A stretch of 64,000 nt of DNA from a virus (Duplodnaviria; Heunggongvirae; Uroviricota; Caudoviricetes): IMG/VR virus record IMGVR_UViG_3300015177_000008, positions 1 to 64,000 of that record. One strand, 5' to 3'. Below are positions 29,514-47,800 of the stretch, one piece after another. The notes below the pieces were generated by a model. That model searched no databases. It had not been told where the DNA came from and worked only from the letters and a program-made list of their open reading frames with translations. Within the stretch, counting starts at the first letter, position 1, and each line of letters begins with the position of its first letter. Both the position numbers and the translations under genes were made by a program.

Positions 29514-30647
29514 ATGCGTCAATTTATAAAAACGTGTGACCTAAGAAATATAATAGATGATATTGCATGTGATGAAAAATTATCCTTGATAAAACCGGCA
29601 GGTATATCAACGAATAATAATATAAACCTTTATTATTTACAATTAAAGAAAACTTCTCAACAGCACCCCATCATTATAAAAAAGAATGGGCCTAGAACGA
29701 AATCCTCTAACGGTCTGGTGACGAATCCGTATCCAATATTGACAGTCTTTAAAATGCTGGATGAAATAAACAATCAGCTTGGCGACCAAGAGGTTATTCC
29801 TGAAATTGTAGAAGCTTCAACCTGGGCAGGTGCAACCATTAACCTGACTGACGACGAAAATCTGAAAGAGTTCTTTAGCGAAAACGAGTTGAGAAAGAAA
29901 GTCGGCTATTCCTTTTCATTCAAAAGTAAAAAATCTATAGAACATTTTCTTCGTGTGTTAATTCAATATATAGAATCAGGGATTATCTCACAAGTAGAGA
30001 GCAGAAAGTTCTTTAGAACAAACAAAAAAAATGTCAAATTAAAAGAGATTTACAATCTTGCTCTAAAATCACAACATTCAAGAGGGCAAAACAGTGCTGA
30101 TGCTCTCAAATCACCTTTCTCGTTGAATAAGAAAGAGATTCATGCAGTCTCAGCCAAAGCAGAAGACAACGTAACTCAAGAAGAAATCAGCTACGACCTC
30201 CAGAAAGAAGAAGTTGAGGAATATATAGAGGGCGAAACAAGATTAATCCAGTCGCAACATCGTAGCCGCGTATCCGGGTTAAGGAATGACGTTCTGGCAA
30301 ACGCAGACTACAGGTGTCAACTATGTTGCAGAACGATGTCGGAAATATACGGCAAGGAAATTGACGGTAAAGAAACGAAAACGCTGCTACACGCTCACCA
30401 CATCATCCCACTTTCACAAGGCGAAGGTGCACGAAGCGTGAACCCAAAAACAGATCTGATTGCCGTCTGCCCTAGCTGTCACGCAATACTTCACATCAGC
30501 GGCAACAAGGAAGCTATACCACGCGAGCGATTTTATGAATTGCGCCAAAAAATTGTCGGCAACCTTCAAAAACAAGAAAACATAGACATAATGAACCTTG
30601 CATGTGATGAAATTAGCAAAAAAGAGAAGAACGAAAACGCCAATTAA
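29514..30647 (+). CDS. HNH endonuclease domain protein with unknown N-terminal domain
   Basis: C-terminal CxxC...HAHHIIP...N...CPSCH HNH/zinc-finger motif; GGAGG RBS; AT-rich. Confidence 0.7.
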   Translation: MRQFIKTCDLRNIIDDIACDEKLSLIKPAGISTNNNINLYYLQLKKTSQQHPIIIKKNGPRTKSSNGLVTNPYPILTVFKMLDEINNQLGDQEVIPEIVEASTWAGATINLTDDENLKEFFSENELRKKVGYSFSFKSKKSIEHFLRVLIQYIESGIISQVESRKFFRTNKKNVKLKEIYNLALKSQHSRGQNSADALKSPFSLNKKEIHAVSAKAEDNVTQEEISYDLQKEEVEEYIEGETRLIQSQHRSRVSGLRNDVLANADYRCQLCCRTMSEIYGKEIDGKETKTLLHAHHIIPLSQGEGARSVNPKTDLIAVCPSCHAILHISGNKEAIPRERFYELRQKIVGNLQKQENIDIMNLACDEISKKEKNENAN

Positions 30648-31672: not shown

Positions 31673-32194
31673 ATGGTTAAAGACATCACCTACGGCATTC
31701 CAGCAGAAGTCTGGCCACGAGACTACGAACATGCTGAAAACATACTTATGTTCTGGCGGAAAAACAACATTCCTGTAAGAGTCACGCTTGAAGACGGTCA
31801 GGTGTTTTGCATGTACGTTCAGGGGACAATGCCTTCCCGCAATAAGCTAGATTTATGCCCGCTTCCATATGATAAAGAAAATCGTATAAGACTCCCACTT
31901 GAGCGCATTAGCACAATTGAATCAGGTGTAATCGATGGCATTGCTCGCGAGTTCAAAGGTAGGCTAACAATACATCCAGACTATGTTGACAATCAGCCAT
32001 CACGTCGTGACTTTTTTAAGATATGTCGTCAGGCTTACCAAAACGGCAAATCTATAAGGGTCTACATGGCAGACGGTCGTGAAATAGAAGGGATATCAAG
32101 AGGCGTTGATGCTTGCCAGGTCACTCTTAAGTTAGAAGACGGCAGAAAAACACTTGTATTCTTCGATTGGGTTGAACGAATTTTACCGTTTTGA
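31673..32194 (+). CDS. hypothetical protein with two internally similar halves
   Basis: 173-aa ORF; repeated V-T-L-EDG-type segments. Confidence 0.4.
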   Translation: MVKDITYGIPAEVWPRDYEHAENILMFWRKNNIPVRVTLEDGQVFCMYVQGTMPSRNKLDLCPLPYDKENRIRLPLERISTIESGVIDGIAREFKGRLTIHPDYVDNQPSRRDFFKICRQAYQNGKSIRVYMADGREIEGISRGVDACQVTLKLEDGRKTLVFFDWVERILPF

Positions 32195-32787: not shown

Positions 32788-33438
32788 ATGACCAATATTA
32801 TCTTATCTAAAAAATCCATCGTTGAAGCTGCGCGTGTTGTAACAAATGAATTAAAAGAAAAAGCAGATCTGGCAACTCAAACATATAACGAATATTATAA
32901 AAATGGTACGCACACCAAAGCAGATAAAGCAAATATGCAAGCTGCTACCACTAAACTTGCTTACTTCATCAACAACGTTGTAAACGCTGTTGAAGACGAA
33001 AAATTATGCTCTGTTTTCTACTATGCGATTAAAGCAAGCAAACAAGCGCCAGAAGTATTTTTCCGTGATGCAATGACTAATAGTTATTCACTGGAAAAAC
33101 TGGTTTATCTGGTTAAATCCATTAAAGCTGGTAAATGCGTTTATTCCGTCGCTGATATGTCAGGATCTCGTGTATTCGCTTTAATCGATATGATTAACGA
33201 CGAGATCGACACGTTCACTAATGGCGCTGTTTTCGATTTAATGAATGAAGCTAAAAAAGCGTGCGAAATTAAATTGGACGCTGGCTATACTCAAGCCAAC
33301 CAGTTGATCAATCTTTGCGAACGTCTTGGACTTGTTGAGAAAGTCAAAGGAATGGGAAGCGCAAAAGCTGGTACGCAGCAATATCGCTTTATTAAAAATG
33401 ATTTCTATAACTATCTGGCTGATGCTTTCAAAGCGTAA
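32788..33438 (+). CDS. hypothetical protein (moron with own promoter and terminator)
   Basis: Start set at ATG 32788 with AAGGA RBS; strong promoter upstream, terminator downstream. Confidence 0.5.
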   Translation: MTNIILSKKSIVEAARVVTNELKEKADLATQTYNEYYKNGTHTKADKANMQAATTKLAYFINNVVNAVEDEKLCSVFYYAIKASKQAPEVFFRDAMTNSYSLEKLVYLVKSIKAGKCVYSVADMSGSRVFALIDMINDEIDTFTNGAVFDLMNEAKKACEIKLDAGYTQANQLINLCERLGLVEKVKGMGSAKAGTQQYRFIKNDFYNYLADAFKA

Positions 33439-33450
33439 TTAATGGAATCT

Positions 33451-33473
33451 GGCGCCCACTATGGGCGCTTTTA
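33451..33473 (+). terminator. intrinsic terminator
   Basis: GCGCCCA-cta-TGGGCGC hairpin plus TTTT. Confidence 0.55.
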
Positions 33474-33485
33474 AGGAGCTTAATC

Positions 33486-33716
33486 ATGTTTATGATTATC
33501 GCTGGCGTTAACGTGCGCAATGAATATTTTGTTAATCGCATCGCTGGGATCGCTGGTTACGCTGGGCGCGCAGTCGAGCTTATAGATGAAACGACGCGCA
33601 AAATTGACTTATTGAGCGACCAGGAGCGAAAAAAAGCAGACGTGAATGACGCTGATATATTTTTAATGTTAAAAGCGTTTGTAGAAATGGGATTTGAAAT
33701 CAGTTTACATAAATAA
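33486..33716 (+). CDS. hypothetical 76-aa protein
   Basis: ORF between two near-identical terminators. Confidence 0.35.
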   Translation: MFMIIAGVNVRNEYFVNRIAGIAGYAGRAVELIDETTRKIDLLSDQERKKADVNDADIFLMLKAFVEMGFEISLHK

Positions 33717-33720
33717 AATC

Positions 33721-33746
33721 GAGCGCCCACTATGGGCGCTTTTTTC
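33721..33746 (+). terminator. intrinsic terminator (duplicate of the 33451 hairpin)
   Basis: GCGCCCACTATGGGCGC plus TTTTTT. Confidence 0.55.
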
Positions 33747-33767
33747 GTTTCCAATACTTCCACCATA

Positions 33768-33793
33768 ACGCGCCAATGATGGCGCTTTTTTTT
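33768..33793 (+). terminator. intrinsic terminator
   Basis: GCGCCA-atga-TGGCGC plus T8. Confidence 0.5.
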
Positions 33794-34199
33794 ATTGTCT
33801 TTGACTCACTCCAACAACATAAAAATAAGCGCAAAAATAACGCCATAGACGAGCTTTTATATCCTTACCAGCATATACCCATTACTTAGCGCATTAACGC
33901 GCTTAAAACGCGTTATATTGCGTTATGGTGTATGGTTAATCATTGGCTTTTAGTCTTGCTTTATGATCCGCGTTTATTTGTCGGCGCGGATCGGCATTTT
34001 GTTTTGTTCCGTATCCGCTCGCGTATTATGTGCGCGTGATTTTTCACATAATCACACCACTTAATCACGTATGTGATTACGCTACGAAAGAAATCTGGAT
34101 GTCTCAGGCGACGAAAGTCATCATGATTTCCCCGCTCACCTGTCCGACAACCGCTGGTTGGATTCCACCAGCTTCCCGATGTTTTTTCTACATAAAGGC

Positions 34200-34325
34200 G
34201 AATGCAGCCGTTTCCCGAAAAAATCCTGGCCGTTTCCCGTCGGCTCATGAATACGTTCCTCGCCGTTTCTGAAAATTTCCCTGCGGCAGCTGGTGGCTAT
34301 AGAGAAAGGGCCGTTTCTGGCCCTC
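34200..34325. repeat. iteron-like direct repeats (GCCGTTTCCCGAAAA-type, 4 copies)
   Basis: Copies at about 34206, 34228, 34261 and 34309, spaced ~20-45 bp apart. Confidence 0.4.
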
Positions 34326-34332
34326 TTCTCAG

Positions 34333-34815
34333 TTACACGCCATCAAGGATGTGGATGCGGTTGCTTGCGTATACATTCAACATAAAGTTAGCGCAAAACA
34401 GTTTCCATGTATCAACGCCAGCGGCATACGTAATGTTTTTGCATTTTATTGCATTGTTGGCGATCCGCATCCCCTGCGATACTGCTTTATCGTCGGAAAA
34501 TTTGAACGACGATTGAGTTTTAATCCAGACAGAAATCTGCGTAGCGAACTCAATCAGCTTGGACTGGCAGAATCGCCCGGAGCGCACCGGAAAGACGAAC
34601 GTTCCGAATCCAGAATTTACCACATACGCTTTCTCAAATACCCGCGAGTAACGACGATTGCCAATGATGTCGCGTGCAATAATGCATTTTTCTTGTGCTG
34701 ACAGTTCTACCGTCTCATTGTCGCGCCATGCACCAAGTACTCGTTTTTCAATGTCAGAGAACGTTACAGCGATATTGCCATGTGCGGGTGCGTTTACAGT
34801 AGCGATAAAATTCAT
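34333..34815 (-). CDS. hypothetical protein
   Basis: 160-aa ORF preceded by conserved promoter/leader. Confidence 0.45.
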   Translation of the reverse strand: MNFIATVNAPAHGNIAVTFSDIEKRVLGAWRDNETVELSAQEKCIIARDIIGNRRYSRVFEKAYVVNSGFGTFVFPVRSGRFCQSKLIEFATQISVWIKTQSSFKFSDDKAVSQGMRIANNAIKCKNITYAAGVDTWKLFCANFMLNVYASNRIHILDGV

Positions 34816-35018
34816 GATTAATTCCTTATCGTAAATAACAAATTGTTTTCTTGTTGGTGTTAATTATCGTTGTACGAATAAGGCGTCAAAGTGGAAAGTT
34901 GCGGTAGCCGGACGGGAACAGGTGGGTTTGTCGGTTGCCTGGAGGTAAGAGGTTGGTGTTTTTAGCCTGCGGGGAACAGGATGGTCATTTAAGGCCACCA
35001 CTGCTGGTGGCCTTGTTT

Positions 35019-35951
35019 TCAACTGGAATAAGAATAATCTGTATTGATGAGTAAAGGCGCATCATCCACTAATCCTGACAGAAACCAGCGAGCAGTCCCG
35101 TAAAGTTCAAGGGCGTCAAGATAGCCTTCATGCAGTGCACCAACCCCAAACACATCATTATCAGCCATAGCTACCGCATCTACGGCCAGATACTCTATGA
35201 GTTCTTCCATGCTTTTTATATTTATATCGTCTAAATTCTCCAGTTTGTTCTCAATCTCATTGAAAGGGATATCCGGCATCGAATGCACTATGATTTTTGG
35301 CACATCATTCTCATTATTTACCTCCACAATAACAATTCCATACTCTGTAAAAAGAGAACTAAAGAATCTATTAAACTCTAAATTAACAAAAGATGCCGAA
35401 CCATTTAAACGCTCAACATATGGGGAACGAAAAGCTGAATGTAAATTATTTTTTCTACTTTCCTTGCCATATTCTATAATCAACTCTTTATTTTTGATCT
35501 TCTCGAGTATTCCACCTAGCTCCTCTACAATTAAAGCGCCAGTGTTTTCTCTTTCTTTTGATACTATAGTTGAAAGACTGATCAAGGCTTCTGTTATACT
35601 GTTATTAGAAACGATCAGATGAAATAGCTCCAGCATAGCCAATCGACCACTATCAGTGAACGTAACAAAGTTTATTGCATCTATTTCATTTTTAATCGCA
35701 AGAAACTCACATTTATTTTTGATGTTTTCCCGAATTGACATCTCCACACGCTGTCTTATTCTCAACACCTGCTTAAAGTAAGTATTTTCAAAACATTCGA
35801 CAGAAAATGTCTTCTTACCATCATTCACAATAGCCAATCTGTATTCATATTCAAGACCATTAAGTTCAAGGCAATCACTGTCATATTGGGACCCATCTTT
35901 AACTGAAAACAATTCACTAATGTCAATTTGTCCCAAAAATACTGGTTTCAT
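35019..35951 (-). CDS. hypothetical protein (AT-rich)
   Basis: 310-aa ORF, low GC; followed by conserved GGCCACC..GGTGGCC hairpin. Confidence 0.5.
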   Translation of the reverse strand: MKPVFLGQIDISELFSVKDGSQYDSDCLELNGLEYEYRLAIVNDGKKTFSVECFENTYFKQVLRIRQRVEMSIRENIKNKCEFLAIKNEIDAINFVTFTDSGRLAMLELFHLIVSNNSITEALISLSTIVSKERENTGALIVEELGGILEKIKNKELIIEYGKESRKNNLHSAFRSPYVERLNGSASFVNLEFNRFFSSLFTEYGIVIVEVNNENDVPKIIVHSMPDIPFNEIENKLENLDDINIKSMEELIEYLAVDAVAMADNDVFGVGALHEGYLDALELYGTARWFLSGLVDDAPLLINTDYSYSS

Positions 35952-36088
35952 TTTTAATTCCTCGTTTGTTTTCGATGTGATAATTATCGCTGAATGAAAT
36001 AGGCTAAAAAGAAGATTTGTAAGGCAACTATCTGGAAGTAAGGCAAAGGGTGGTCATTTAAGGCCACCAGCATTGGTGACCTTATTCT

Positions 36089-36370
36089 TCAGTGGAGCAG
36101 ACCGATGTCGATGGTATCCCCTGAATCATCCACACGGATCATCAGCATGGCAAAGGCGTTTAGTGGATAGCTTGCGTGCCATTCAGGGAAGCGGTCATCT
36201 CGCATGAAGTCGGCAATGTCATAAACGCATCCCTCAAAGTGGAAGAATCGCGTGCTTACCTGCTCGTCATAATCCACATGATCCATTTCTTGCTGTTCTT
36301 TTTCCGGCAAATCCAGCCATGATTCAAGGAATACATTTTGTGCTTTAGTGGTAATGGTGAAGTCAGTCAT
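36089..36370 (-). CDS. small acidic protein (hypothetical)
   Basis: 93 aa, D/E-rich; conserved hairpin after stop. Confidence 0.45.
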   Translation of the reverse strand: MTDFTITTKAQNVFLESWLDLPEKEQQEMDHVDYDEQVSTRFFHFEGCVYDIADFMRDDRFPEWHASYPLNAFAMLMIRVDDSGDTIDIGLLH

Positions 36371-36373
36371 TCT

Positions 36374-36514
36374 TCACCTCCATTTTGATAGAAAATCATC
36401 CATCTCAAGATAGCCATTAAGCTCCTGCTCTGACATGATGATGTTTTCCATGCTTCTGATAGCCTCAAGTAACGACTCCCGATCTGACGAAGCGACAGTA
36501 ACAATGTATTCCAT
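36374..36514 (-). CDS. 46-aa small ORF translationally coupled to the downstream acidic gene
   Basis: MEYIVTVASSDRESLLEAIRSMENIIMSEQELNGYLEMDDFLSKWR by my translation; its stop lies 3 nt before the next ATG, within GGAGGTGA. Confidence 0.25.
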   Translation of the reverse strand: MEYIVTVASSDRESLLEAIRSMENIIMSEQELNGYLEMDDFLSKWR

Positions 36515-36641
36515 ATTATTTCACCACCTAATAAACACGTTGTTTTCTTGTTGTTGTAATTATCGCGGTGTAGATAAGGCAGAAAACAAATTGTTATCGG
36601 GTATAAGAAAATGGCGCGGTTTACGCGCCATTCAAAGAGGA

Positions 36642-37037
36642 TTAAGCGAATACGCTTTCAGGGATTAAGGTGTCAGCAGGAATGCCGGATGTAATGCGCA
36701 GACCATACTGACCAATCCAGGTGGTGCTGGTGTTCAGGCTGGAGGTGAATACGGAATTAACCATATTCATCATGGTTTCAAACACCTCTTCATCAACCTG
36801 GCGGAAGTAGTTCTCGATTTTCAGCAGCAGCGGGTCAGTTGCATCGAGAATGGACTGGTATTGAGTCGCGTACTCGCCGCCGGAGGCATCACCTTTACGC
36901 ACGATCGTACTGGCCTGTACTTCGGCACCAGTTTCGGTGTTGTACGTAACAACGGTGATTTTTGCCACATTCTTACCTTCGGCGGTTTCAGAGGCATAGT
37001 AAACATCAACTGTCAGTTTTTCGCGTTTAACGGTCAT
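36642..37037 (-). CDS. hypothetical protein
   Basis: 131-aa ORF; TATAAAAT -10-like box preceded by GTAAGTA-tg-TACTTAC palindrome. Confidence 0.45.
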   Translation of the reverse strand: MTVKREKLTVDVYYASETAEGKNVAKITVVTYNTETGAEVQASTIVRKGDASGGEYATQYQSILDATDPLLLKIENYFRQVDEEVFETMMNMVNSVFTSSLNTSTTWIGQYGLRITSGIPADTLIPESVFA

Positions 37038-37163
37038 TTCACTCTCCGTAGTGTCTTGATTATTTTTCTATTTTATAGCCGTAAGTATGTACTTACAATA
37101 CAAAAAAGCCCCGTAAGGATGGCGGGGCTGTCGTACTGTCGACTAATTACCACTTGCACATTA

Positions 37164-37475
37164 TCAGGCTATTGCCATCACTGATGCTCTCTGAATTTCT
37201 TGCTGGGCCACGCGGTTAACTTCCATCAAAGCCAGTTCGAGCTGATGTTCCGGCCACATTCTTTGAAATGCCACCCAGCCTTTTCCACGCTGGCGACGAA
37301 CATTCATTACATAACGAGTAAAGGTGTTTTTATCGAAAGACACCGCTGTTTCACGGAACAGACGAATAGAGGTCCCATTGGCAACGATGTCCAGCAAAGT
37401 TAATTGAGCAACCAGTGCAGGCTTCTCTTTTCTCTTCTGGTCTTTGTCCAGACCAAGAACCAATGATTTTTTCAT
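37164..37475 (-). CDS. hypothetical basic protein
   Basis: Start at internal Met (MKKSLVLGL); conserved leader upstream. Confidence 0.4.
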   Translation of the reverse strand: MKKSLVLGLDKDQKRKEKPALVAQLTLLDIVANGTSIRLFRETAVSFDKNTFTRYVMNVRRQRGKGWVAFQRMWPEHQLELALMEVNRVAQQEIQRASVMAIA

Positions 37476-37628
37476 CACAACTCCGTAAACAACTTGTTTT
37501 CTCAATGGCGTAAATAATACCAGTAAGAAAACGGCTACAAAGCATATTGATCAGGCGCATGAGCGATATGCAGGTTCTTCCCTGCGGCTATAGAGAAATT
37601 AAGCCAGCAATGCTGGCTTTGGTTGGGG

Positions 37629-37958
37629 TTACTCGAATACTTCAAGAAACTCCTGAACGTCCCAATGCTGGACGAGGTGAAGATAGACCTTAGAAATCAC
37701 GTCATTTTCGCTATCGCATGTGAAGTAGTACTTCTGGCTGCGGTTGTATGTGTCCACACAAAATTCGCTCATATCCATAAAGTCAGCATCTTCACCCATG
37801 TCGCAAATCATCAAAGCAGGTGCGTCATCACGAGTCATCAGCTCCAGCACCCATCTTGAATTGATCAGAGTGGAAGACCAACCTTCTAACTCATAAAACT
37901 GATCAAACTCTTTTTGAGTTAATTTCTTGATTTGGTTGATGTCGATATTTGTAAACAT
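37629..37958 (-). CDS. small acidic protein (hypothetical)
   Basis: Start at ATG 37956-37958 with AAGGA RBS; conserved leader upstream. Confidence 0.4.
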   Translation of the reverse strand: MFTNIDINQIKKLTQKEFDQFYELEGWSSTLINSRWVLELMTRDDAPALMICDMGEDADFMDMSEFCVDTYNRSQKYYFTCDSENDVISKVYLHLVQHWDVQEFLEVFE

Positions 37959-38096
37959 AAAGCAATCCTTAAACATGTTGTTTTCTGAATTGCGTAAACA
38001 ATACCAGTAAGAAAACGGCCACAAAGTATATCGTTACGGTGTTGCGCTGCCCGGAGGTTAATAGCGACAAAAGCCACCGTGCTGGTGGCCTCACTC

Positions 38097-38315
38097 TTAA
38101 TCTTCGTCGCCCGGGAACTCGCTGTGTACCGCGTCCACCAGCTCCCGCTTTTCATCTTCACTCAGCAGGTGCCAGATATCCTTCCCCTTGGGCGGTTCCC
38201 CTTCTGCCGGGACGAACGACCACAACTTGCGGTACAACTCCGGCCCCACTGCATCCAGACACTCAGCCAGGGAATCCACGCCCCACACCTCAACCGTCAC
38301 AGGCATCTTAATCAT
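38097..38315 (-). CDS. small acidic protein (hypothetical)
   Basis: 72 aa, acidic C-terminus; conserved leader and hairpin. Confidence 0.4.
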   Translation of the reverse strand: MIKMPVTVEVWGVDSLAECLDAVGPELYRKLWSFVPAEGEPPKGKDIWHLLSEDEKRELVDAVHSEFPGDED

Positions 38316-38689
38316 CTCTTCATCCTCACTTCGTTTATATAACGTCTAAACATGTTGTTTACTTGTTGGTGTTATTATCGCAATAAGACAAAGGCGGAAA
38401 AGGATTTTATGTCGGGAAAGCCAGGCGGGTAGTGAGTATCCGGGAACGACACGGGAACCAGTATTTACGATATTCTGCTCTACGCGCGCCGCAGGGCTGG
38501 TGGGCAGAATTTTCTTCTCCCCGAAAACCTACTGAAATCGATTGTGACCCGCTGACTGTCTGGCACAATTACGCTGTAGCTGGGCATTCAGAGGGAATCC
38601 AGCGGTAAGCAAGTCCGCCTACGTGAGCGCCTCTCTTCTTCCCGCACATTACAGGTGGGTAGCCGCAACTCTCCCTCTCGCTATACCGG

Positions 38690-38830
38690 TACGCCGCCGT
38701 TCCTGAACCGGCATCGAGCCTTTTCCCGAAATCCACACAGGCAACTCAACCGTTTCCCTGAAAATCCCCAGCCGTTCCCCGAAGGCAACCCAGCCGTTTT
38801 TGTAGCGGGATGCAGCCTTTTCCCTGTATG
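38690..38830. repeat. iteron-like direct repeats (GCCGTTTCCCGAAAA-type, about 6 copies)
   Basis: CGCCGTTCCTGAA, AGCCTTTTCCCGAAA, AACCGTTTCCCTGAAAA, AGCCGTTCCCCGAAGG, AGCCGTTTTTG, AGCCTTTTCCCTG. Confidence 0.4.
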
Positions 38831-38939
38831 GACCGAAGGCTGACCGTAGGGGTGTTACGGGGGATAAAATCAGGAGTTGAATAAATACGAAAAAGGAGGC
38901 GACACCCCTCCTTCCCTCCCCACTTATACATACCTGGCT

Positions 38940-39800
38940 TCTTCGCTATACATGTTGTGTTTTATCTGTCTCAACCTCTCTATAGGCGTTAATGCTCACT
39001 CCTTCCAGAATGTTCTATACGGCGACTATTTCTGTTGGTGAATTGGGTGTGTTGTTTTCTCTGTCGGTGTATGTGGTTTCGTTCGTTTTGCGGTGGTTCT
39101 TCTATGGGGTGTTCTCGTCGTTTTGGTGATTGTTCTTCTCCGTGTATGGAGTAATGGCAGGTGGGCGATTCCTTTCGTTGTTGTGTTTGAGTTGTTTGTC
39201 TGGAGTGTGTGAAAGGCTTTTGTAGTTATTCGTGTATTGGGTAATGGCGTTTCCCGTGATTGTTCTGTTTCGTGTCTTTTGGGATTGAGAGAAACCTTGC
39301 GGTTACAGGCTTCGTTGGGGTTTCAGTGATTCTGGTGTTTCTTCGCTGTTTGGGGAATGGCGTGTCGTGGGTATCGCGCGTATGAATGTTTTCGGATTGC
39401 CTGTGAAAGTTAGGTTGGTTGTCCGGTAGCCTGGGAAGAAGAGGTGGGTCTTTTCGGTAGCCTGCCATAAAGAGGTTGGTTGTTTTTGGTAATGGCATAT
39501 GTGTTATTTAGTTGTTTTGTTATACCTGAAAATAAGTTGTTTATATGGTTGTGTAACGCAACGGGAGCGATTTTGAGCGTGTGTTTTTGTTGGTAGTGTG
39601 TTTGGTCGTCTGCGGTGAAAATTGGACGCTGTGGCGCTGTCTGCTGCGTAGAATTACGGGTATAAGCAGTGATGTGTGAAAACGTCAATTTTTTAGACCA
39701 AATCGGGTGAAAGCGTTGATGTTTCGTTGATCTGTTATTCAGTTGTTTTCTTGATTGTATAAACAACCATAACTTATTGATATTTAAGGATATGATTGCG
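38940..39800. repeat. GT-rich (minus strand CA-rich) ORF-free region with ~100-bp degenerate repeats
   Basis: Repeated GG(G/A)GTAATGGC(G/A) cores at about 39150, 39245, 39355 and 39490; strong strand compositional bias; contains copies of the conserved leader motif. Confidence 0.35.
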
Positions 39801-39897
39801 GGTATGGAAGGGGAGTAGTGGCGATCAACGGATTCTTATAGAAAAGAATCAAATTGTGACCGCCATTATCAACTGATTGATTTGTTTACTTGTGTAG

Positions 39898-40296
39898 TCA
39901 GTTCTCGAAATGAATAGGGTCAACGTAATGCCGCTCACCGCTTTTACCATTACACAGCACTGTAACTTTCGCCTTTTCACTCCAGGCTGAGTATAGAAAG
40001 TTCCCATCAGGTTGAACATGGTAACGAGAGAAGTAAACATCGCCGACTGAGGCGTCGAACATGTTCCTATCTTTTTCACTTTGGGCAAGCGAGATGGATA
40101 TCACCGAATTCCCATTTGGGGAAACGATTTTAAATTTATTCCCTATATCCATAACAATATTGTAACCAGGTAATTGCTTGTGTGTTTCCGGATCTATTTT
40201 CATGCATCGTGGGTACACGATAGTGTTAGGCTCTTCAACTGGCGTGGCATTAGCAGAAAGCACAAAAAATATTAGTGCCAATGGTGCATATTTCAT
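39898..40296 (-). CDS. secreted protein (unknown function)
   Basis: Signal peptide MKYAPLALIFFVLSANA. Confidence 0.5.
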   Translation of the reverse strand: MKYAPLALIFFVLSANATPVEEPNTIVYPRCMKIDPETHKQLPGYNIVMDIGNKFKIVSPNGNSVISISLAQSEKDRNMFDASVGDVYFSRYHVQPDGNFLYSAWSEKAKVTVLCNGKSGERHYVDPIHFEN

Positions 40297-40590
40297 TTAT
40301 CCCTCACAATTTCCAATTTTCCAGACCATCTTCTATTTCAGCGTCAGGGTGGAATTGTACCGCATCAAATCCTACATCGAGCACCTTTCGAATGTTCTTG
40401 ATGGTTTGCTATGTGACACCGTAATCACGCAGCTTTTCTTCCCTCCCCTGACTCCCCCATACTCCGTTTCTGTACCCAATTGAGTCCGAGATCGTATGGT
40501 GCTCGAAACAGATATTTGGTAGACACTCAGAGTCATGCTGTGTAACGAGGGTAGGGCTACTAACTGTCGTCTTATACAATTTGGTGAGTT

Positions 40591-40839
40591 TCAGCATTTT
40601 ACCACCCCGTTCGGAAACAACTCATTCGCCGTAGTTGATATAACCTCCCAATTAACGCCGACATCAGCGTTATGGCATTGTCTGATTTTTTGCATCACCT
40701 GTACGCATTGTTCATCAGTGAGATCTGTCCTTACTTCAGCAATATCTTCTTTGTGCCACATAACCATGAGTAAGGGTTCGTCTTCTGGATAGTTTTTCAG
40801 TTTCTCGATGATTTCTTTTGCTGTTCCAAACATCTTCAT
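40591..40839 (-). CDS. small acidic protein (hypothetical)
   Basis: 82-aa ORF with inverted pair of leader motifs upstream. Confidence 0.4.
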   Translation of the reverse strand: MKMFGTAKEIIEKLKNYPEDEPLLMVMWHKEDIAEVRTDLTDEQCVQVMQKIRQCHNADVGVNWEVISTTANELFPNGVVKC

Positions 40840-40940
40840 CTCCTAAATAATTTGTTTTCTTATGTGGCTTATTATCTCAATCAACAAAAGGTAGAAAACA
40901 AATTGTTTTAGGGCTTGTGTAAATTAGGAGGGATTGTGTC

Positions 40941-40970
40941 TATATGAAAATGCCCAGCGTGTTGCCGGGC
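40941..40970 (-). terminator. metG intrinsic terminator
   Basis: AATGCCC..GGGCATT hairpin plus U-tract just after the metG stop. Confidence 0.5.
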
Positions 40971-40992
40971 ATTGTGAAGAATGGTTGTTTAG

Positions 40993-43026
40993 TTACTTAA
41001 CTTGGTGGCCTGGTTTAGCACCGGCATCCGGGCTTAGCAGGAAAATATCTTTCCCGCCAGGACCGGCAGCCATCACCATGCCTTCGGAGATGCCAAAGCG
41101 CATTTTACGCGGAGCCAGGTTAGCCACCATAATGGTGTGACGACCAATCAGTGCCTGTGGGTCTGGATAAGCAGAACGGATGCCTGAGAAGACATTACGC
41201 TTTTCACCACCGAGATCCAGTGTCAGACGCAGCAGTTTGTCAGAACCTTCTACAAACTCTGCATTTTCAATCAGCGCCACGCGCAGGTCAACTTTGGCGA
41301 AGTCGTCAAAGGTGATAGTTTCCTGAATCGGGTCGTCAGCCAGTGGGCCAGTTACCGGTACGGCTGTGGCTTTCACTTCTTCTTTGGATGCTTCCACCAG
41401 TGCTTCAACCTGCTTCATATCGATGCGGTTATACAGTGCCTTGAACGGATTCACTTTATGGCCCAGCAGCGGTTGCTGGATACCATCCCAGGTCAGTTCC
41501 GTATTGAGGAATGCTTCCGCACGTTCAGTCAGTTTCGGCAGTACCGGTTTCAGGTACGTCATCAGCACGCGGAACAGGTTAATGCCCATAGAGCAAATCG
41601 CTTGCAGATCGGCATCGCGGCCTTCCTGCTTCGCCACCACCCACGGAGCCTGTTCATCGACATAGCGGTTAGCCAGGTCAGCCAATGCCATGATTTCACG
41701 AATCGCTTTACCAAATTCGCGGCTTTCCCATGCTTCACCAATCACTTCAGCGGCATCAGTAAAGGTTTTGTACAGTTGCGGGTCAGCCAGTTCGCCTGCC
41801 AGCACACCGTCAAAACGCTTATTGATAAAGCCCGCGTTACGGGACGCCAGATTCACCACTTTGTTCACGATATCGGCATTCACGCGCTGAACGAAATCCT
41901 CCAGGTTGAGATCGATATCATCAATGCGCGAAGAGAGTTTCGCAGTGTAGTAGTAACGCAGGCTGTCAGCGTCAAAATGATTCAGCCAGGTGCTGGCTTT
42001 AATAAAGGTGCCGCGAGACTTGGACATCTTCGCACCGTTCACCGTCACATAGCCATGAACAAACAGGTTGGTCGGCTTGCGGAAGTTGCTGCCTTCCAGC
42101 ATGGCAGGCCAGAACAGGCTGTGGAAGTAAACGATATCTTTACCGATGAAGTGGTACAGCTCGGCGGTGGAGTCTTTCTTCCAGTATTCGTCGAAGCTGG
42201 TAGTGTCGCCGCGTTTGTCGCACAGATTCTTGAAGGAACCCATGTAGCCAATCGGCGCGTCCAGCCAGACGTAGAAATATTTGCCCGGCGCGTTCGGAAT
42301 TTCAAAACCGAAGTAAGGCGCATCGCGGGAGATATCCCACTGTTGCAGGCCGGATTCAAACCATTCCTGCATTTTGTTCGCCACCTGCTCCTGCAACGCG
42401 CCGCTGCGGGTCCATGCCTGCAACATTTCGCTGAAAGAGGGCAGATCAAAGAAGAAGTGTTCGGAATCACGCATTACCGGGGTAGCGCCAGAAACCACCG
42501 ATTTCGGCTCGATCAATTCAGTCGGGCTATATGTTGCGCCGCAGACTTCACAGTTATCGCCGTATTGATCTGGCGCTTTACATTTCGGGCAGGTGCCTTT
42601 CACAAAACGATCCGGCAGGAACATGCCTTTTTCCGGGTCGTACAACTGAGAGATAGTGCGGTTTTTAATAAAACCGTTCTCTTTCAGGCGAGTATAGATA
42701 AGTTCTGACAACTGGCGGTTCTCTTCGCTGTGCGTCGAGTGATAGTTGTCATAGCTGATGTTAAAGCCTGCGAAATCAGTCTGGTGTTCCTGACTCATTT
42801 CGCCAATCATCTGCTCCGGTGTGATACCAAGCTGCTGTGCTTTCAGCATGATTGGCGTACCGTGGGCATCGTCGGCACAGATGAAATTAACCTCGTGGCC
42901 GCGCATTCGCTGGTAACGAACCCAGACATCAGCCTGGATGTGCTCCAGCATATGGCCGAGGTGGATTGAGCCGTTAGCGTACGGCAGCGCGCACGTCACC
43001 AGAATTTTCTTCGCGACTTGGGTCAT
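40993..43026 (-). CDS. metG: methionine--tRNA ligase
   Basis: Near-identical to my recollection of E. coli MetG ([30 protein letters not shown]); start set at ATG 43024-43026 (677 aa) rather than the upstream TTG of the ORF track. Confidence 0.95.
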
Positions 43027-43183: not shown

Positions 43184-44284
43184 ATGAGCGAGTCCAAATC
43201 GCCGGATGCCCTAAGAGCAATGGTAGCCGGTACGTTGGCTAATTTTCAGCACCCAACCCTGAAACACAACCTGACTACGCTTAAAGCGTTACACCATGTT
43301 GCGTTGATGGATGACACACTGCATGTCGAACTAATCATGCCTTTCGTGTGGAATAAGCCTTTTGAAGACCTGAAAGAGCAATGTAGTGGTGATCTGCTCC
43401 GTATCACTGGCGCAAAGGCTATCGACTGGAAGCTGTCGTACAATATTGCCACGCTTAAGCGCGTCAAAAACCAACCAGGCATTAATGGCGTTAAGAACAT
43501 TATCGCCGTCAGCTCAGGCAAGGGCGGCGTGGGTAAATCCTCCACAGCGGTAAACCTGGCACTGGCTTTGGCTGCTGAAGGTGCGAAAGTTGGTATTTTG
43601 GATGCCGATATCTATGGTCCATCAATTCCAACCATGCTGGGCGCGGAAAACCAACGTCCAACCTCACCGGACGGTACTCACATGTCACCTATCATGTCTC
43701 ATGGCCTGGCAACCAACTCTATTGGTTATCTGGTCACCGACGACAATGCAATGGTGTGGCGTGGACCGATGGCCAGCAAGGCGCTGATGCAGATGTTGCA
43801 GGAAACACTGTGGCCTGATCTGGACTATCTCGTTCTCGATATGCCACCGGGCACTGGTGATATTCAATTGACGCTGGCGCAGAACATTCCTGTAACTGGT
43901 GCGGTTGTGGTAACTACGCCGCAAGACATCGCGCTGATCGATGCGAAGAAAGGCATTGTGATGTTCGAAAAAGTCGAAGTGCCGGTACTGGGTATCGTCG
44001 AAAACATGAGTGTGCATATTTGCAGTAACTGCGGTCATCACGAACCAATTTTTGGCACCGGTGGCGCACAGAAACTGGCCGAGAAATACAACACGCAGTT
44101 GTTAGGCCAAATGCCACTTCATATCTCTCTTCGTGAAGATCTGGATAACGGAACACCAACCGTTATTAGTCGTCCAGATAGCGAATTTACGGCTATTTAT
44201 CGTGACCTCGCAGATCGCGTTGCTGCCCAAATGTATTGGCAAGGTGAAGTAATACCTGGCGAAATCGCATTCCGCGCAGTGTGA
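43184..44284 (+). CDS. apbC: Fe-S cluster carrier P-loop ATPase Mrp/ApbC
   Basis: Deviant Walker A SGKGGVGKSS, CxxC; divergent from metG as in E. coli. Confidence 0.95.
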   Translation: MSESKSPDALRAMVAGTLANFQHPTLKHNLTTLKALHHVALMDDTLHVELIMPFVWNKPFEDLKEQCSGDLLRITGAKAIDWKLSYNIATLKRVKNQPGINGVKNIIAVSSGKGGVGKSSTAVNLALALAAEGAKVGILDADIYGPSIPTMLGAENQRPTSPDGTHMSPIMSHGLATNSIGYLVTDDNAMVWRGPMASKALMQMLQETLWPDLDYLVLDMPPGTGDIQLTLAQNIPVTGAVVVTTPQDIALIDAKKGIVMFEKVEVPVLGIVENMSVHICSNCGHHEPIFGTGGAQKLAEKYNTQLLGQMPLHISLREDLDNGTPTVISRPDSEFTAIYRDLADRVAAQMYWQGEVIPGEIAFRAV

Positions 44285-44810: not shown

Positions 44811-47800
44811 CTACTTTGTTCCTTTCTCTACATCAGCCTTTTTGGCATGAATAGTCACTGTTTTTGACTCAGTTTCGTACCCTCCATATGTAAGGGCAGT
44901 GAATTTCAGTTTATAAACCCCCTCAACAGTGGTACTGAATGTACGAGAACTTTTGCCACTAATGAAATGGGTTATTTTAGCAGGAAGAATTTTGTACATA
45001 TCATCACTCACCCCTTCCGGCGCCTCAACGTCAACCCAAACAGTCCCACCAACGGTATTGTCTCCTTCCATTAAAGTAAGGTTGATCGTTGCAGTTGTGT
45101 TCCCATCAGCCACCAGTTCAGTTACATCAGGAGATACTGTAAGAACCGCATTTTTTTCATCTGCAACGAATTTAGCTTCGGCAGTTTTCGTCGATACCTG
45201 ACTGTTGGTCCGATTAACTGTTGCTGTTAATACATATGTATTGGCTTTCGTTGTGGTAGCAGTGAAAACAGCAATCCCCTGCTCATCGGTTGTTACCTCC
45301 CCATTCGGAGACAGGTTTAACCCCTCTGGACTTGCACTCAAGGTTACCTCACTCCCTCTCAGGAGGTTGTTATTGGCGTCAACAACCTTGATTCTGTAGG
45401 TTTGTTTAGCCTTCCCGTCTGCTAAAGCATAGTTATTTGCTACCGCAATGTCGGCAATGGTTGCTGTAGCTTTATCAGCCACAAACTCGATACTCTGCGT
45501 CGTCGAAGGCTGATTATCTCTTGCTGTAGCTGTGATTTCGTACGTTCCGGCAATCACGGAAACCACCTGCAGTTCAGCTTCCCCACGATCATTGGTTTTA
45601 ATCCAGACATTATCACCAGTAATCGGTTTAACCCCTCTGGGTAAATTAAAGGTAACCAATGTTCCAGGAACCAAGTTGCCGTTTTGATCCTTAACAATCG
45701 CCGTCAACGTAAAGGCATCTGCTCCATTTGCCGCTTTAGGATTGTTGGTATCAACCTGTAGACTTGCATGTCCGGTCCCTGCATCCGCATTGAATTTCAC
45801 TGTCACTGACTTCTGATTGCCATTTACAGAAAACGTAATATTGCGCTCTCCGGCAACAGTTGACATCAGCTCTATATCAGCTTTACCCGCCGCATTGGTT
45901 GTTACAGTATTGCCCGTCTTGCTGGTTACACCTTCAGGCAAAGTCAGCGTAACATTTTGCCCCTGTAACGGGTTGCCATAGGAGTCCACAACGGTCAGTG
46001 TTACCTTGTTAGCTGACTGTCCATTCGCCAGTTGGTTATCCACCTCGACTGAAATGTCGTTGATATTTGCTTCGGTGGTATTACCCACAACCTCCAGCAG
46101 TAAAGGTTTTGAAGCAGCATCTCTGCCGTCTACCCTTGGCCAGATGACTAACTGCCCCGCAGCAGAACCTAAAGTTAATGTAGTAACATAGGTGCCATCG
46201 CTCTGCTCTTTCCATTCGCCTACCGAAGGTTTTTCTGTTCCAGCATTGGCTACACCACTAAATTCTGGTGTCTCAGGTTTCAGGCCACTAATAGGATTAC
46301 CCTTCGCATCCTTCGCCGTATATGTCAGTTTGGTCGTTGTTTTGACTATTGGCGTTCCATTATCCGCAACAAGCGTGGAATTAGTTAATGATATATCCCG
46401 GGCGATAACGGTCAAAATCGCTGCTTCTGAGGCGGCGGGCTGACCATTTATAAGCGGCATAATGCTAATCTCACCCGTTTTTACACCAGCGGTAAGCGTA
46501 GCAATATAGGTGCCGCCGTTTTCCTCAGCCCAATTTGAAATGTTCGCCCCTTCAGCTGCGGCCCCCGTCAGAGTTGCCGATAGAGAAAGACCGCTGATTG
46601 CATTACCATGTGCATCTTTTGCTACCAGCGTCACTATCGTGCTGTCTCCTGCTTTCACTTTATCTGAAGCAACAGAAACCTTCGACTGACCTGAAGATAA
46701 AGCGTCAGCCACAACGATAACTTTAGCTGCATTAGCCGCCGCATCCTGTCCATTGAGTTTCGGCATAACAACTAATTCGCCCACCGTAGTACCCAGAGAA
46801 ATCTGCGCGGTCCATGTTCCATCACCATTATCCGTCCAGCCTGAGACTGAAGAACCCGCAGCGGCTGCACCTGATAATGACGGCGCTTCTGGGGTGATGC
46901 CTGTTACTGGGTTGTTATAAGCATCTTTTGCTGACCAGATTGCCGTAAGCGTACCACCAACCACCGGTTTATCAGGATTCAGAGTGATGGACGAATGTGC
47001 TGCATCAAGCGGCCCGGCAACAAACTTCAGCGTTTGTTGCAATGTGCCCAACTGATACTGATCACTAAAGGCACGCACAACAATGTTTCCGGCACGGGTC
47101 GAAGAAACCGTGGCGCTATAGACCCCCGGCTTTATCTCCGAAATGCTGCCAATGGTAACACCGCTGTTGTCCTGTGGAACAAAGCGCAAACGGCTGGCTT
47201 CTCCCTCCACCGGGTTGCCATCGGTATCCACCGCAGTAAGCGTCAACGTGTAAGATTTCTGACCATCGGCAATCACATCACCTGACGTCTCATTCACACT
47301 CAGAGTCGATTTTGTCACATCCATCATAGTGGTACGCAGTTCAGCCGTGACGGTTTTGCTCATGCCATCAACGCTCACAGTAATGGTTGCTTCACCTGAT
47401 TGCGTACCGGTGGTGAAGACAGACTTGTACACTCCGGCTTCTGTTTCGGTGATCTCACCCAGTGTTGGCTGTGCCTGTGATTTAGCGGACTTAAAGGCCC
47501 GCGTTACGATGTTTCCGGCAGGTTTAAACGTCAGTTCAGTTTTGATCTGATCTTTCATTCCCGTGATTGGCTGTCCCTCGGCGTCTCGCAGAGACAGAAC
47601 CAGCGGCTTTTGCGCACTCCCGTTAGCAAGCATTTGGATACGGCTCTGGCCATCAAGCGTTAACGTAGTACGATCGGCGCTCATACCTGCTCCGGTAATG
47701 ACCACCGCAGTCTGCACACGTTTCGAGGCATTGCCTTTGTTATCGTATGCAACCGCAGAGATCGCGTAATAATTGTCTTTGCCTGCACGATAAGCCGGGA

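What the first reader, a model, noticed from the sequence alone, without database searches (positions are those of the whole stretch)
34200..38830. Two arrays of iteron-like GCCGTTTCCCGAAAA repeats
Four copies at 34200-34325 and about six at 38690-38830 of a degenerate 13-15-bp direct repeat with 20-45 bp spacing, both in ORF-free DNA next to inverted-repeat-rich segments (33900-34130). Arrays of this type are characteristic of replication origins or of cooperative regulator binding; no Rep-like protein is obvious nearby.
Basis: seen in the sequence. Interest (0 to 1): 0.5.

Follow-up and report, generated by a model that had tools for sequence, protein, structure and literature searches.

The report
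Paired protein-binding repeat arrays, phage-plasmid
Two conserved arrays of short, evenly spaced DNA repeats bracket a cluster of small genes in an SSU5-type phage-plasmid; they look like docking sites for a phage DNA-binding protein, possibly a winged-helix protein encoded next door, and they are not the plasmid's replication origin.

Summary
Four copies (34207-34324) and six copies (38696-38829) of a core GCCGTTTCC(C/T)G lie on the + strand, mostly 22 bp apart. This clustering was never reached in simulations, and no other cluster occurs in the window or in about 106 kb of the close relative Cyrano.

The window is an SSU5/pHCM2-type phage-plasmid. Both arrays keep their place and orientation in relatives from Salmonella, Klebsiella, Enterobacter, Pectobacterium and more distant contigs. 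The repeat cores are better conserved than the spacers, and the DNA is non-coding.

The arrays are not the plasmid origin:
- The RepA gene and its unrelated 21-bp iterons lie elsewhere.
- No DnaA box or AT-rich unwinding element adjoins either array.
- Yersinia pMT1 lacks array 2 and still exists as a plasmid.

Its model has a C-terminal winged helix-turn-helix, and the predicted recognition helix stays invariant wherever the motif does.

Best reading (about 0.4): cis-acting nucleoprotein arrays that bracket and control or insulate the small-gene cassette cluster. Main rival (about 0.25): a lytic origin plus enhancer pair like P4 ori/crr. The function is untested and I found no description in the literature library searched. 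Interest is moderate.

The parts
34207..34324 (+). Array 1: four copies of the GCCGTTTCC(C/T)G motif at 34207, 34229, 34262 and 34310. A further degenerate TTTCCCTGCGG lies at 34275-34285.
   Evidence: Copies 1 and 2 are nearly invariant in 59 unique relatives (anchored on those two copies). Core positions are 78% invariant against 58% for spacers.
38696..38829 (+). Array 2: six copies of the same motif at 38696, 38718, 38749, 38771, 38793 and 38815.
   Evidence: Core positions are 74% invariant against 30% for spacers across five lineages.
32788..33438 (+). Gene for the 216-aa protein p216 (PHROG 1513): N-terminal helical domain plus C-terminal winged helix-turn-helix. It is the candidate array-binding protein.
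34295..34330 (-). Terminator hairpin of the 160-aa gene. Its loop is motif copy 4.
   Evidence: Fold of -20 kcal/mol, z -2.5; the SSU5 version is followed by a U-tract. The stems differ between lineages while the loop CGTTTC is kept.
34333..38315 (-). Bracketed cluster of small genes of unknown function (160, 310, 93, 46, 131, 103, 109 and 72 aa). Each has a repeated promoter-like and leader cassette and a hairpin terminator.
   Evidence: The core set of 160, 93, 131, 103 and 72 aa is syntenic in distant relatives, although the 160-aa gene was not detected in one distant locus, L071.
34905..34985 (-). Three 23-bp units (family D8) that are weak copies of the motif in the opposite orientation. 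They lie between the upstream terminator and the promoter-like cassette of the 160-aa gene.
37523..37537 (-). Weak opposite-orientation motif copy (TAGCCGTTTTCTTAC) inside the promoter-like cassette of the 103-aa gene. A paralogous copy lies at 38007-38021.
38890..38916 (-). Terminator-like hairpin just to the right of array 2. It is not conserved in SSU5.

Best explanation
The two arrays are cis-acting sets of helically phased, head-to-tail binding sites for a sequence-specific DNA-binding protein of the phage-plasmid. The best candidate is the adjacent 216-aa winged-helix protein p216.

Proposed mechanism: protomers bind one face of the DNA at 22-bp steps and build a nucleoprotein complex at each end of the 1.5-4.5-kb cluster of small-gene cassettes. 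Weaker sites in the opposite orientation lie next to promoter-like sequences inside the cluster. The complexes most likely pair, loop or insulate the cluster and so control its transcription during phage development.

Shown:
- The arrays, their uniqueness, conservation, phasing and non-coding nature.
- That they are not the RepA origin.
- The winged-helix fold next door (from a predicted structure).

Inferred:
- That p216 is the binder.
- That the outcome is regulatory or architectural.
For: - The clustering is far beyond chance and unique in the genome.
- Position, orientation and copy pattern are kept across lineages from Escherichia to Pectobacterium and an AT-rich relative.
- Cores are more conserved than spacers.
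- Spacings in 84 unique arrays are 22 (131 times), 31-34 (58 times) and 44 (11 times), close to whole helical turns, which points to recognition on DNA rather than RNA. A further 18 spacings of 48-49 bp are about 4.5 turns, so out of phase.
- Its recognition helix YTQANQLI..CERLG is invariant at 33% overall identity, matching the invariance of the motif.
- It has fixed synteny with array 1.
- Weak motif-like sites inside the cluster's intergenic DNA number 6 on the - strand against 0.75 expected, and 0 on the + strand.
Against: - There is no binding data.
- The fold matches are generic winged-helix hits (Foldseek E 0.02-0.2), and the model rests on 16 sequences.
- Co-occurrence of p216 with the arrays is confounded by conserved synteny within one phage family.
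- Array 2 is about 290 bp from the nearest promoter-like cassette, and array 1 has none.
- Typical winged-helix repressors bind palindromes, not direct repeats.
- The Cyrano homologue of p216 (CYRAN_113) is at the detection floor in lysogen RNA-seq (PMC9928086, S1 Table). A role as lysogenic silencer is therefore unsupported and any role would be in lytic growth.
- Two of the weak internal sites are paralogous, so they are not independent.
Confidence: 0.4

Rival explanations
1. The arrays are a lytic-cycle replication origin, or an origin plus a cis enhancer. An origin-binding protein, p216 or another, binds the iteron-like repeats and recruits the phage DnaB-like helicase and primase, as with P4 ori/crr, SPP1 oriL/oriR or R6K gamma/alpha/beta.
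For: - The anatomy is iteron-like: asymmetric direct repeats at 22-bp steps.
- A winged-helix protein is encoded next to array 1, in an operon that starts with a UvsW-type helicase.
- Array 2 sits in a conserved non-coding region of about 1.6 kb that is rich in other repeats.
- Eight of the window's 16 Chi sites lie in 34165-38503, which would fit a place where double-strand ends arise.
- No alternative iteron array was found beside the helicase and primase genes of Cyrano.
Against: - No AT-rich stretch (75% or more A+T over 40 bp) lies within about 420 bp of array 1 or about 650 bp of array 2, and no DnaA box adjoins either.
- p216 matches no Rep or origin-binding family by sequence.
- The replication genes are not adjacent.
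- The distance between the arrays varies from 1.5 to 4.5 kb.
Confidence: 0.25
2. The arrays bind a conserved host protein of Enterobacterales, such as a response regulator or nucleoid protein, rather than a phage protein.
For: The motif is nearly unchanged across hosts, from Escherichia to Pectobacterium, while the phage proteins diverge to 33-60% identity.
Against: I could recall no E. coli regulator consensus that matches; this is from memory and was not tested against a database. The motif clusters nowhere else in the window. The recognition helix of p216 is equally invariant.
Confidence: 0.08
3. The arrays are a centromere-like or DNA-handling site, bound by a TubR- or AspA-like winged-helix protein that forms a filament for segregation, condensation or packaging.
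For: TubR and AspA are among the closest folds to the p216 C-terminal domain. From my own knowledge, not checked here, tubC and parC centromeres are clustered direct repeats.
Against: - No partition NTPase operon is adjacent.
- In Cyrano the ParA gene lies elsewhere and has no motif nearby.
- The p216 homologue is not expressed in the plasmid state.
- pMT1 has lost array 2.
- The terminase genes are 11 kb away.
Confidence: 0.07
4. The repeats act in RNA, for example as a Rho-loading (rut) C-rich tract on + strand transcripts, or as decoy sites for the nearby FljA-like RNA-binding protein on - strand read-through transcripts.
For: - The arrays are C-rich on the + strand and lie where transcription units converge or just past terminators.
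- An FljA-like gene (PF03614, E 3e-82, with a weak Hfq-like hit) lies 2 kb upstream.
- FljA-type proteins block fliC mRNA translation (PMC2652032).
Against: - Spacing in near-whole helical turns has no meaning in RNA.
- There is no Rfam match.
- The 12-nt identity to the E. coli fliC leader is at chance level: shuffled leaders score a mean of 12.4 and a maximum of 16 against an observed 12.
- Two copies of array 1 lack the GGA that a CsrA-type site would need.
- No promoter that would transcribe the arrays was found.
Confidence: 0.07
5. The arrays are functionless relics of cassette duplication, or merely conserved flanks that guide homologous exchange of gene cassettes.
For: The region is mosaic, with only 67-84% of the query covered in near relatives. 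Motif-like sequence follows another cassette terminator at 37572-37590. Chi sites are dense here.
Against: Cores are more conserved than spacers. Copy number, order and phasing are kept at 33-60% protein divergence. Relics would decay.
Confidence: 0.03

Closest known systems
Iterons of RepA-type plasmid origins (RepFIB of P307, P1 incC/incA, F, R6K)
   Same: Asymmetric direct repeats in one orientation, about 22 bp centre to centre, in two arrays that flank genes. A winged-helix protein is encoded nearby.
   Different: - The element's own RepA and its iterons are elsewhere and unrelated in sequence.
- There is no DnaA box or AT-rich unwinding element.
- The arrays flank 1.5-4.5 kb of unrelated small genes rather than a rep gene.
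- p216 has no sequence match to Rep families.
Satellite phage P4 ori and crr (alpha protein sites about 4.5 kb apart); SPP1 oriL/oriR bound by G38P
   Same: Two separate clusters of one short repeat, kilobases apart, bound by one protein and acting together in cis. This comparison is from my own knowledge of those systems.
   Different: No primase-helicase or G38P-like initiator is adjacent, replication function is untested, and the repeat sequence is unrelated.
Lambda OL/OR operator triplets with long-range looping; coliphage 186 flanking FL/FR sites
   Same: Two arrays of phased sites a few kilobases apart bracket a gene block and could cooperate by looping. This comparison is from my own knowledge.
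   Different: Lambda operators are palindromes that overlap promoters and are bound by a repressor expressed in lysogens. Here the sites are asymmetric and mostly away from promoters, and the candidate binder is silent in the lysogen.
TubR-tubC and AspA centromere complexes
   Same: A winged-helix protein with a fold similar to p216's C-terminal domain. From my own knowledge, tubC is built of clustered direct repeats that a protein filament covers.
   Different: No TubZ- or ParA-type motor gene is adjacent. There are two arrays around an unrelated gene cluster, and array 2 is dispensable in pMT1.

Membership tests
Iteron-type theta origin (RepA/IncFIB-like) | Direct repeats of about 17-22 bp phased at about two helical turns | tested here: met
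   A core of 11-15 bp, with spacing of 22 bp in 131 of 234 intervals and most of the rest at 31-34 or 44-49 bp.
Iteron-type theta origin (RepA/IncFIB-like) | The repeats are the binding sites of the replicon's Rep initiator and lie next to its gene | tested here: not met
   RepA is not in the window. In Cyrano it lies at 60.6-61.7 kb, flanked by iterons of the form CTCTCTATAGTGGAT at 21-bp steps. The motif matrix finds nothing there.
Iteron-type theta origin (RepA/IncFIB-like) | Adjacent AT-rich unwinding element and DnaA boxes | tested here: not met
   No DnaA box with one mismatch or fewer lies near either array. The nearest 40-mers with 75% or more A+T are about 420 and 650 bp away.
Iteron-type theta origin (RepA/IncFIB-like) | Supports autonomous replication or exerts incompatibility | not testable with these tools
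   This needs cloning. Indirect evidence: pMT1 lacks array 2 and is a complete circular plasmid record.
Phage lytic origin with origin-binding protein (lambda ori/O, SPP1, P4 ori/crr) | Repeated binding sites for an initiator encoded at or next to the origin | tested here: inconclusive
   The repeats are present, and the adjacent p216 has a winged-helix domain. It has no sequence relation to known initiators.
Phage lytic origin with origin-binding protein (lambda ori/O, SPP1, P4 ori/crr) | Copy-number maximum or initiation at the site during lytic growth | not testable with these tools
Plasmid partition centromere (parC, parS, tubC) | Repeat array adjacent to an operon for an NTPase and a centromere-binding protein that is expressed in the plasmid state | tested here: not met
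   The ParA gene of Cyrano lies at 29.3 kb with no motif nearby. The MinD-like gene at 43184-44284 is 4.4 kb away. CYRAN_113 is at the floor in lysogen RNA-seq.
Operator arrays of a prophage repressor | Sites overlap or adjoin the regulated promoters; the repressor is expressed in lysogens; the sites are usually palindromic | tested here: inconclusive
   Only weak, oppositely oriented copies lie at the promoter-like cassettes. The arrays themselves lie about 290 bp or more from any cassette, the sites are asymmetric, and the candidate binder is not expressed in the lysogen.
Transposon or Mu/Tn7-type element ends | Arrays of transposase sites in inverted orientation at the two ends, with a transposase gene inside | tested here: not met
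   Both arrays are in the same orientation. No transposase is found among the enclosed proteins.
Repeat-containing protein-coding sequence | An open frame conserved across relatives, with indels in multiples of three | tested here: not met
   The spacers carry 1- and 2-nt indels. PGAP annotation calls no gene there in relatives. Only the depositor's SSU5_109 overlaps array 2.
Known RNA families (Rfam 15) | A match to a curated covariance model | tested here: not met
   Over 33000-41000 the only match with E up to 1 is a chance mir-190 hit at 40839-40915.

The most novel reading that the evidence does not exclude
The arrays together with p216 are the unidentified lytic replication origin and initiator of the SSU5/pHCM2/pMT1 phage-plasmid supercommunity. 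Two iteron clusters would cooperate over 1.5-4.5 kb as in P4 ori/crr, with a local Chi cluster protecting the rolling-circle tail. Alternatively, they are a new type of domain-boundary system that walls off an early gene island.
Probability: 0.2. Interest if true: 0.65.

Novelty: new variant of a known kind. Interest (0 to 1): 0.45.

Why it matters
SSU5-type phage-plasmids are very common in clinical Enterobacterales. The p216 gene was found in 815 plasmid records, mostly from Klebsiella, E. coli, Enterobacter, Yersinia and Salmonella. Those records include Y. pestis pMT1.

How these elements switch from plasmid maintenance to lytic growth, where lytic replication starts, and how their early gene island is controlled was not described in the papers I searched. 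A conserved pair of cis-elements with a candidate cognate protein gives a concrete handle for experiments, such as footprinting, deletion and titration. If the arrays titrate an essential phage factor, they could also be used to curb or engineer these elements.

The finding is not a surprise in kind, because phased repeat arrays are a familiar device.

Tried and rejected
1. **RepA iterons or the plasmid origin.** Rejected: the Cyrano iterons are unrelated and lie elsewhere.
2. **Hidden coding repeats.** Rejected. The stop-codon counts were uninformative for such short GC-rich stretches.
3. **Rfam RNA family.** No match.
4. **The basic 103-aa protein inside the cluster as the binder.** Its AF2 model (pLDDT 81) is a four-strand beta meander plus a long helix, with only weak COMM- and NTF2-like hits and no DNA-binding fold.
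5. **Mimicry of the fliC mRNA leader as a target of the FljA-like protein.** The minus strand of array 1 shares TGAGCCGACGGG with the E. coli K-12 fliC leader. The score is at the level of shuffled controls and is beaten elsewhere in the window.
6. **CsrA-type GGA sites on the minus strand.** Two copies of array 1 lack GGA.
7. **A conserved + strand promoter after array 2.** The spacing is not kept in SSU5 or Klebsiella.
8. **Transposon ends.** The orientation is wrong.
9. **An alternative iteron array beside the DnaB-like helicase and primase genes of Cyrano.** None found.
10. **Defence-system, Pfam or NCBIfam identities for the neighbouring and enclosed proteins.** None found, apart from FljA-like and PHROGs of unknown function.
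11. **Literature.** Searches of the paper library found no description of these repeats. One preprint listed in the search could not be opened.
12. **Promoter scan.** The sigma-70 consensus scan did not call the repeated promoter-like cassettes. Their -35-like and GATAAT hexamers are about 15 bp apart, so calling them promoters is my inference.


Full report
**What the window is.** The 5.8-kb stretch around the finding matches SSU5-type phage-plasmids. It is 95-96% identical to Escherichia phages Cyrano (pLF82), PhiR41_1 and CMS-2020a, and about 80% identical to Klebsiella relatives and Salmonella phage SSU5. It also matches 753 plasmid records, nearly all non-mobilizable; those fetched were mostly typed IncFIB. 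The window runs from the tail and head genes, through the terminase, two ParB-N-domain proteins and a UvsW-type helicase, into this region, and on to metG.

**The observation.**
- Array 1 has copies starting at 34207, 34229, 34262 and 34310.
- Array 2 has copies at 38696, 38718, 38749, 38771, 38793 and 38815.
- All copies are on the + strand, with core GCC(G/T)TT(T/C)CC(C/T)G.
- The strict 8-mer GCCGTTYC forms a same-strand cluster of 4 within 130 bp. None of 1000 first-order Markov simulations reached 4. A looser core gives 6, and none of 300 simulations exceeded 3.
- A weight matrix built from the copies is circular for the copies themselves, but it is informative elsewhere. It finds no other cluster in the 64-kb window or in about 106 kb of Cyrano.

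**Conservation.** Both arrays sit at the same places, in the same orientation, in:
- SSU5, two Klebsiella lineages, Enterobacter and a divergent E. coli lineage;
- dozens of IMG/VR contigs;
- a distant group with about 24-bp spacing, where the enclosed proteins are only 31-69% identical;
- a Klebsiella plasmid and a Pectobacterium plasmid, where the neighbouring p216 is 49% and 33% identical;
- in degenerate form, an AT-rich relative.

Core positions are invariant in 78% (array 1) and 74% (array 2) of columns, against 58% and 30% for the spacers. Spacers carry 1- and 2-nt indels, and the PGAP annotation pipeline calls no gene there, so the repeats are not coding. In 84 unique arrays the spacings are 22 bp (131 times), 31-34 bp (58 times), 44-49 bp (31 times) and 24 bp (8 times). 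Most are close to whole helical turns; these values are not phylogenetically independent. The arrays lie 1.5-4.5 kb apart, median 3.4 kb.

**Anatomy of the surroundings.**
- The arrays bracket a run of small minus-strand genes (160, 310, 93, 46, 131, 103, 109 and 72 aa) with no Pfam, NCBIfam or PADLOC identity. Most belong to PHROGs of unknown function.
- Each gene carries a repeated upstream cassette, with a GATAAT-type hexamer and a conserved CA-rich leader ACACCAACAAGAAAACAAC.TGTTTA, and ends in a hairpin. That these cassettes are promoters is my inference; the consensus scan did not call them.
- The core set of 160, 93, 131, 103 and 72 aa is syntenic in distant relatives, although the 160-aa gene was not detected in one distant locus, L071. 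The rest of the cluster varies.
- Array 1 lies in the 616-bp gap where the + strand operon (helicase, FljA-like protein, p216 and a 76-aa protein) converges on the cluster. Its fourth copy is the loop of the terminator hairpin of the 160-aa gene. The stem differs between lineages (GGGCC/GGCCC, GGGGC/GCCCC, GCG/CGC) while the loop keeps CGTTTC.
- Array 2 lies about 290 bp upstream, in the minus sense, of the first cassette, at the edge of a conserved non-coding region of about 1.6 kb.
- Inside the cluster, weak motif-like sites occur only in the opposite orientation in promoter-proximal intergenic DNA: 6 observed against 0.75 expected on the - strand, and 0 on the + strand. Two of the six are paralogous.

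**Not the plasmid origin.**
- The window has no RepA gene.
- In Cyrano, RepA sits at 60.6-61.7 kb, flanked by two sets of 21-bp iterons (CTCTCTATAGTGGAT) unrelated to this motif.
- No DnaA box or AT-rich element adjoins either array.
- Y. pestis pMT1 keeps p216, array 1 and the first two cluster genes, but an IS1541 insertion with a deletion has removed the rest of the cluster and array 2. Array 2 is therefore dispensable for plasmid life.

**A candidate binder.** The 216-aa product of 32788-33438 (PHROG 1513) is encoded 0.77 kb upstream of array 1.
- Its family is confined to SSU5-type elements: 102 clusters in one search, and only 23 representatives among 1.8 billion proteins in the other.
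- Its AF2 model (pLDDT 79, from 16 sequences) has a helical N-terminal domain and a C-terminal helix-strand-helix-helix-wing domain.
- The predicted recognition helix (Y/F)TQ.NQ.I..CERLG is invariant even at 33% overall identity, in parallel with the invariant DNA motif.
- In 61 of 61 SSU5-type loci with enough flank, p216 lies 527-1043 bp upstream of array 1 on the same strand. This last point is confounded by conserved synteny.
- The basic 103-aa protein inside the cluster was modelled as an alternative and shows no DNA-binding fold.

**Expression.** In the published LF82 lysogen RNA-seq, the p216 homologue CYRAN_113 and the 76-aa gene CYRAN_112 are at the detection floor in LB. They rise only in the macrophage 6-h samples. 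The cluster genes are low (6-25 on the table's scale, with CYRAN_109 at 58), against 133 for RepA and 96 for the putative repressor (PMC9928086, S1 Table). p216 is therefore not an evident lysogenic silencer, and any role is more likely during lytic development.

**Most likely mechanism.** My commitment, with confidence about 0.4:
1. p216, or less likely another factor, binds head to tail on one face of the helix at each array.
2. This forms two nucleoprotein complexes that bracket the cassette cluster.
3. Together with the weak opposite-orientation sites next to the internal promoter-like cassettes, the complexes loop, pair or insulate the cluster and so set its transcription, for example early-gene shut-off or protection from converging transcription.

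Steps shown: the arrays, their phasing, uniqueness and conservation, the absence of origin hallmarks, and the neighbouring winged-helix fold. Steps inferred: the identity of the binder and the regulatory outcome.

**Rivals.**
- **Lytic origin plus enhancer (0.25).** In favour are the iteron-like anatomy, the adjacent winged-helix gene in a helicase operon, the large repeat-rich non-coding region next to array 2, and a dense Chi cluster (8 of the window's 16 Chi sites lie in 34165-38503). Against it are the missing unwinding element and the lack of any initiator homology.
- **Weaker rivals.** A host factor (0.08), a centromere-like or packaging role (0.07), an RNA-level role (0.07) and functionless relics (0.03).

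**Comparison and novelty.**
- The arrays work like iterons or operator arrays, but they fail the membership tests for a RepA-type origin, a partition centromere, transposon ends and coding repeats.
- The nearest architectural precedents are P4 ori/crr and lambda OL/OR. Both comparisons come from my own knowledge of those systems.
- I found no description of these repeats in the paper library.
- I rate the finding a new variant of a known kind: a family-specific, paired cis-element with a probable cognate winged-helix protein, in a clinically widespread phage-plasmid family.
- Interest is moderate (0.45). It would rise if the arrays proved to be the lytic origin.

Noticed in passing
window 38316-39897: A non-coding region of about 1.6 kb conserved in all SSU5-type relatives. 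Positions 39000-39800 show extreme strand asymmetry (GC skew +0.35 to +0.52, AT skew -0.3 to -0.65), so a minus-strand transcript would be C/A-rich. The region holds repeated GTAATGGC units and TAGCCTG..AGGTGGGT units. A cassette-type promoter-like sequence near 39760 (-) and a hairpin at 38916-38890 (-) would bracket a non-coding RNA of about 850 nt, possibly an Hfq-type (ARN)n sponge or part of an origin. The ORF annotated as CYRAN_103 (39410-39766, -) looks spurious.
   Followed up: partly
window 34165-38503: A Chi (GCTGGTGG) cluster. The window has 16 sites against 1.2 expected from shuffles, and 8 of them fall in this 4.3 kb, in both orientations. Several form the stems of cassette terminators (35003, 36064, 38081). 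A similar concentration is seen in Cyrano, Klebsiella and Enterobacter relatives.
   Followed up: partly
window 34835-34891, 35977-36011, 36532-36587, 37482-37547, 37966-38031, 38347-38402, about 39730-39760, 40845-40905: A repeated promoter-like cassette with a conserved CA-rich 5' leader (ACACCAACAAGAAAACAAC.TGTTTA) stands in front of each small minus-strand gene. This suggests a modular island of exchangeable, individually expressed genes, possibly for host takeover or anti-defence. The sigma-70 consensus scan did not call these cassettes.
   Followed up: partly
window 35019-35951 (-): A 310-aa ORF with low GC (0.30-0.36), inserted in the cluster. It has no PHROG, Pfam, NCBIfam or PADLOC match and was not found at this position in the relatives examined. 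It is probably a recently acquired accessory gene.
   Followed up: partly
window 31673-32194 (+): An FljA-like protein (PF03614, repressor of phase-1 flagellin, E 3e-82) with a weak Hfq-like hit at residues 120-167. It is conserved in synteny in most relatives. It may be a lysogenic-conversion factor acting on host flagellin mRNA.
   Followed up: partly
window 34205-34255 (- strand) against the E. coli K-12 fliC leader (L112): The 12-nt identity TGAGCCGACGGG, followed by AAAC, between array 1 and the fliC 5' leader. The test showed it is no better than chance.
   Followed up: yes
window 29514-30647 (+): A 377-aa ORF with weak PADLOC hits to HNH and type IV methyl-directed restriction enzyme models (E 2e-5 and 3e-5). 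No gene is annotated at the matching position in the relatives whose annotation I read, so it may be an inserted nuclease.
   Followed up: no
window 33800-34190: Conserved non-coding DNA between the + operon terminators and array 1. It holds repeated (A/T)AACGCG and GCGCGTTTTA boxes, TAATCAC(A/G) repeats at 34040-34080, and hairpins with T-runs at 33964-33993 and 34020-34036. It could be a small RNA gene or a second set of protein sites.
   Followed up: no
L107 (Y. pestis pMT1, NC_004838.1 4307-20954): pMT1 keeps the helicase, the FljA-like gene, p216, array 1 and the 160- and 93-aa genes. An IS1541 insertion with a deletion has removed the rest of the cluster and array 2.
   Followed up: yes
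window 44811-49061 (-): A 1416-aa ORF with no PADLOC match. Cyrano's annotation shows no gene of this size at the corresponding place, next to the S24 peptidase gene. It was not examined further.
   Followed up: no
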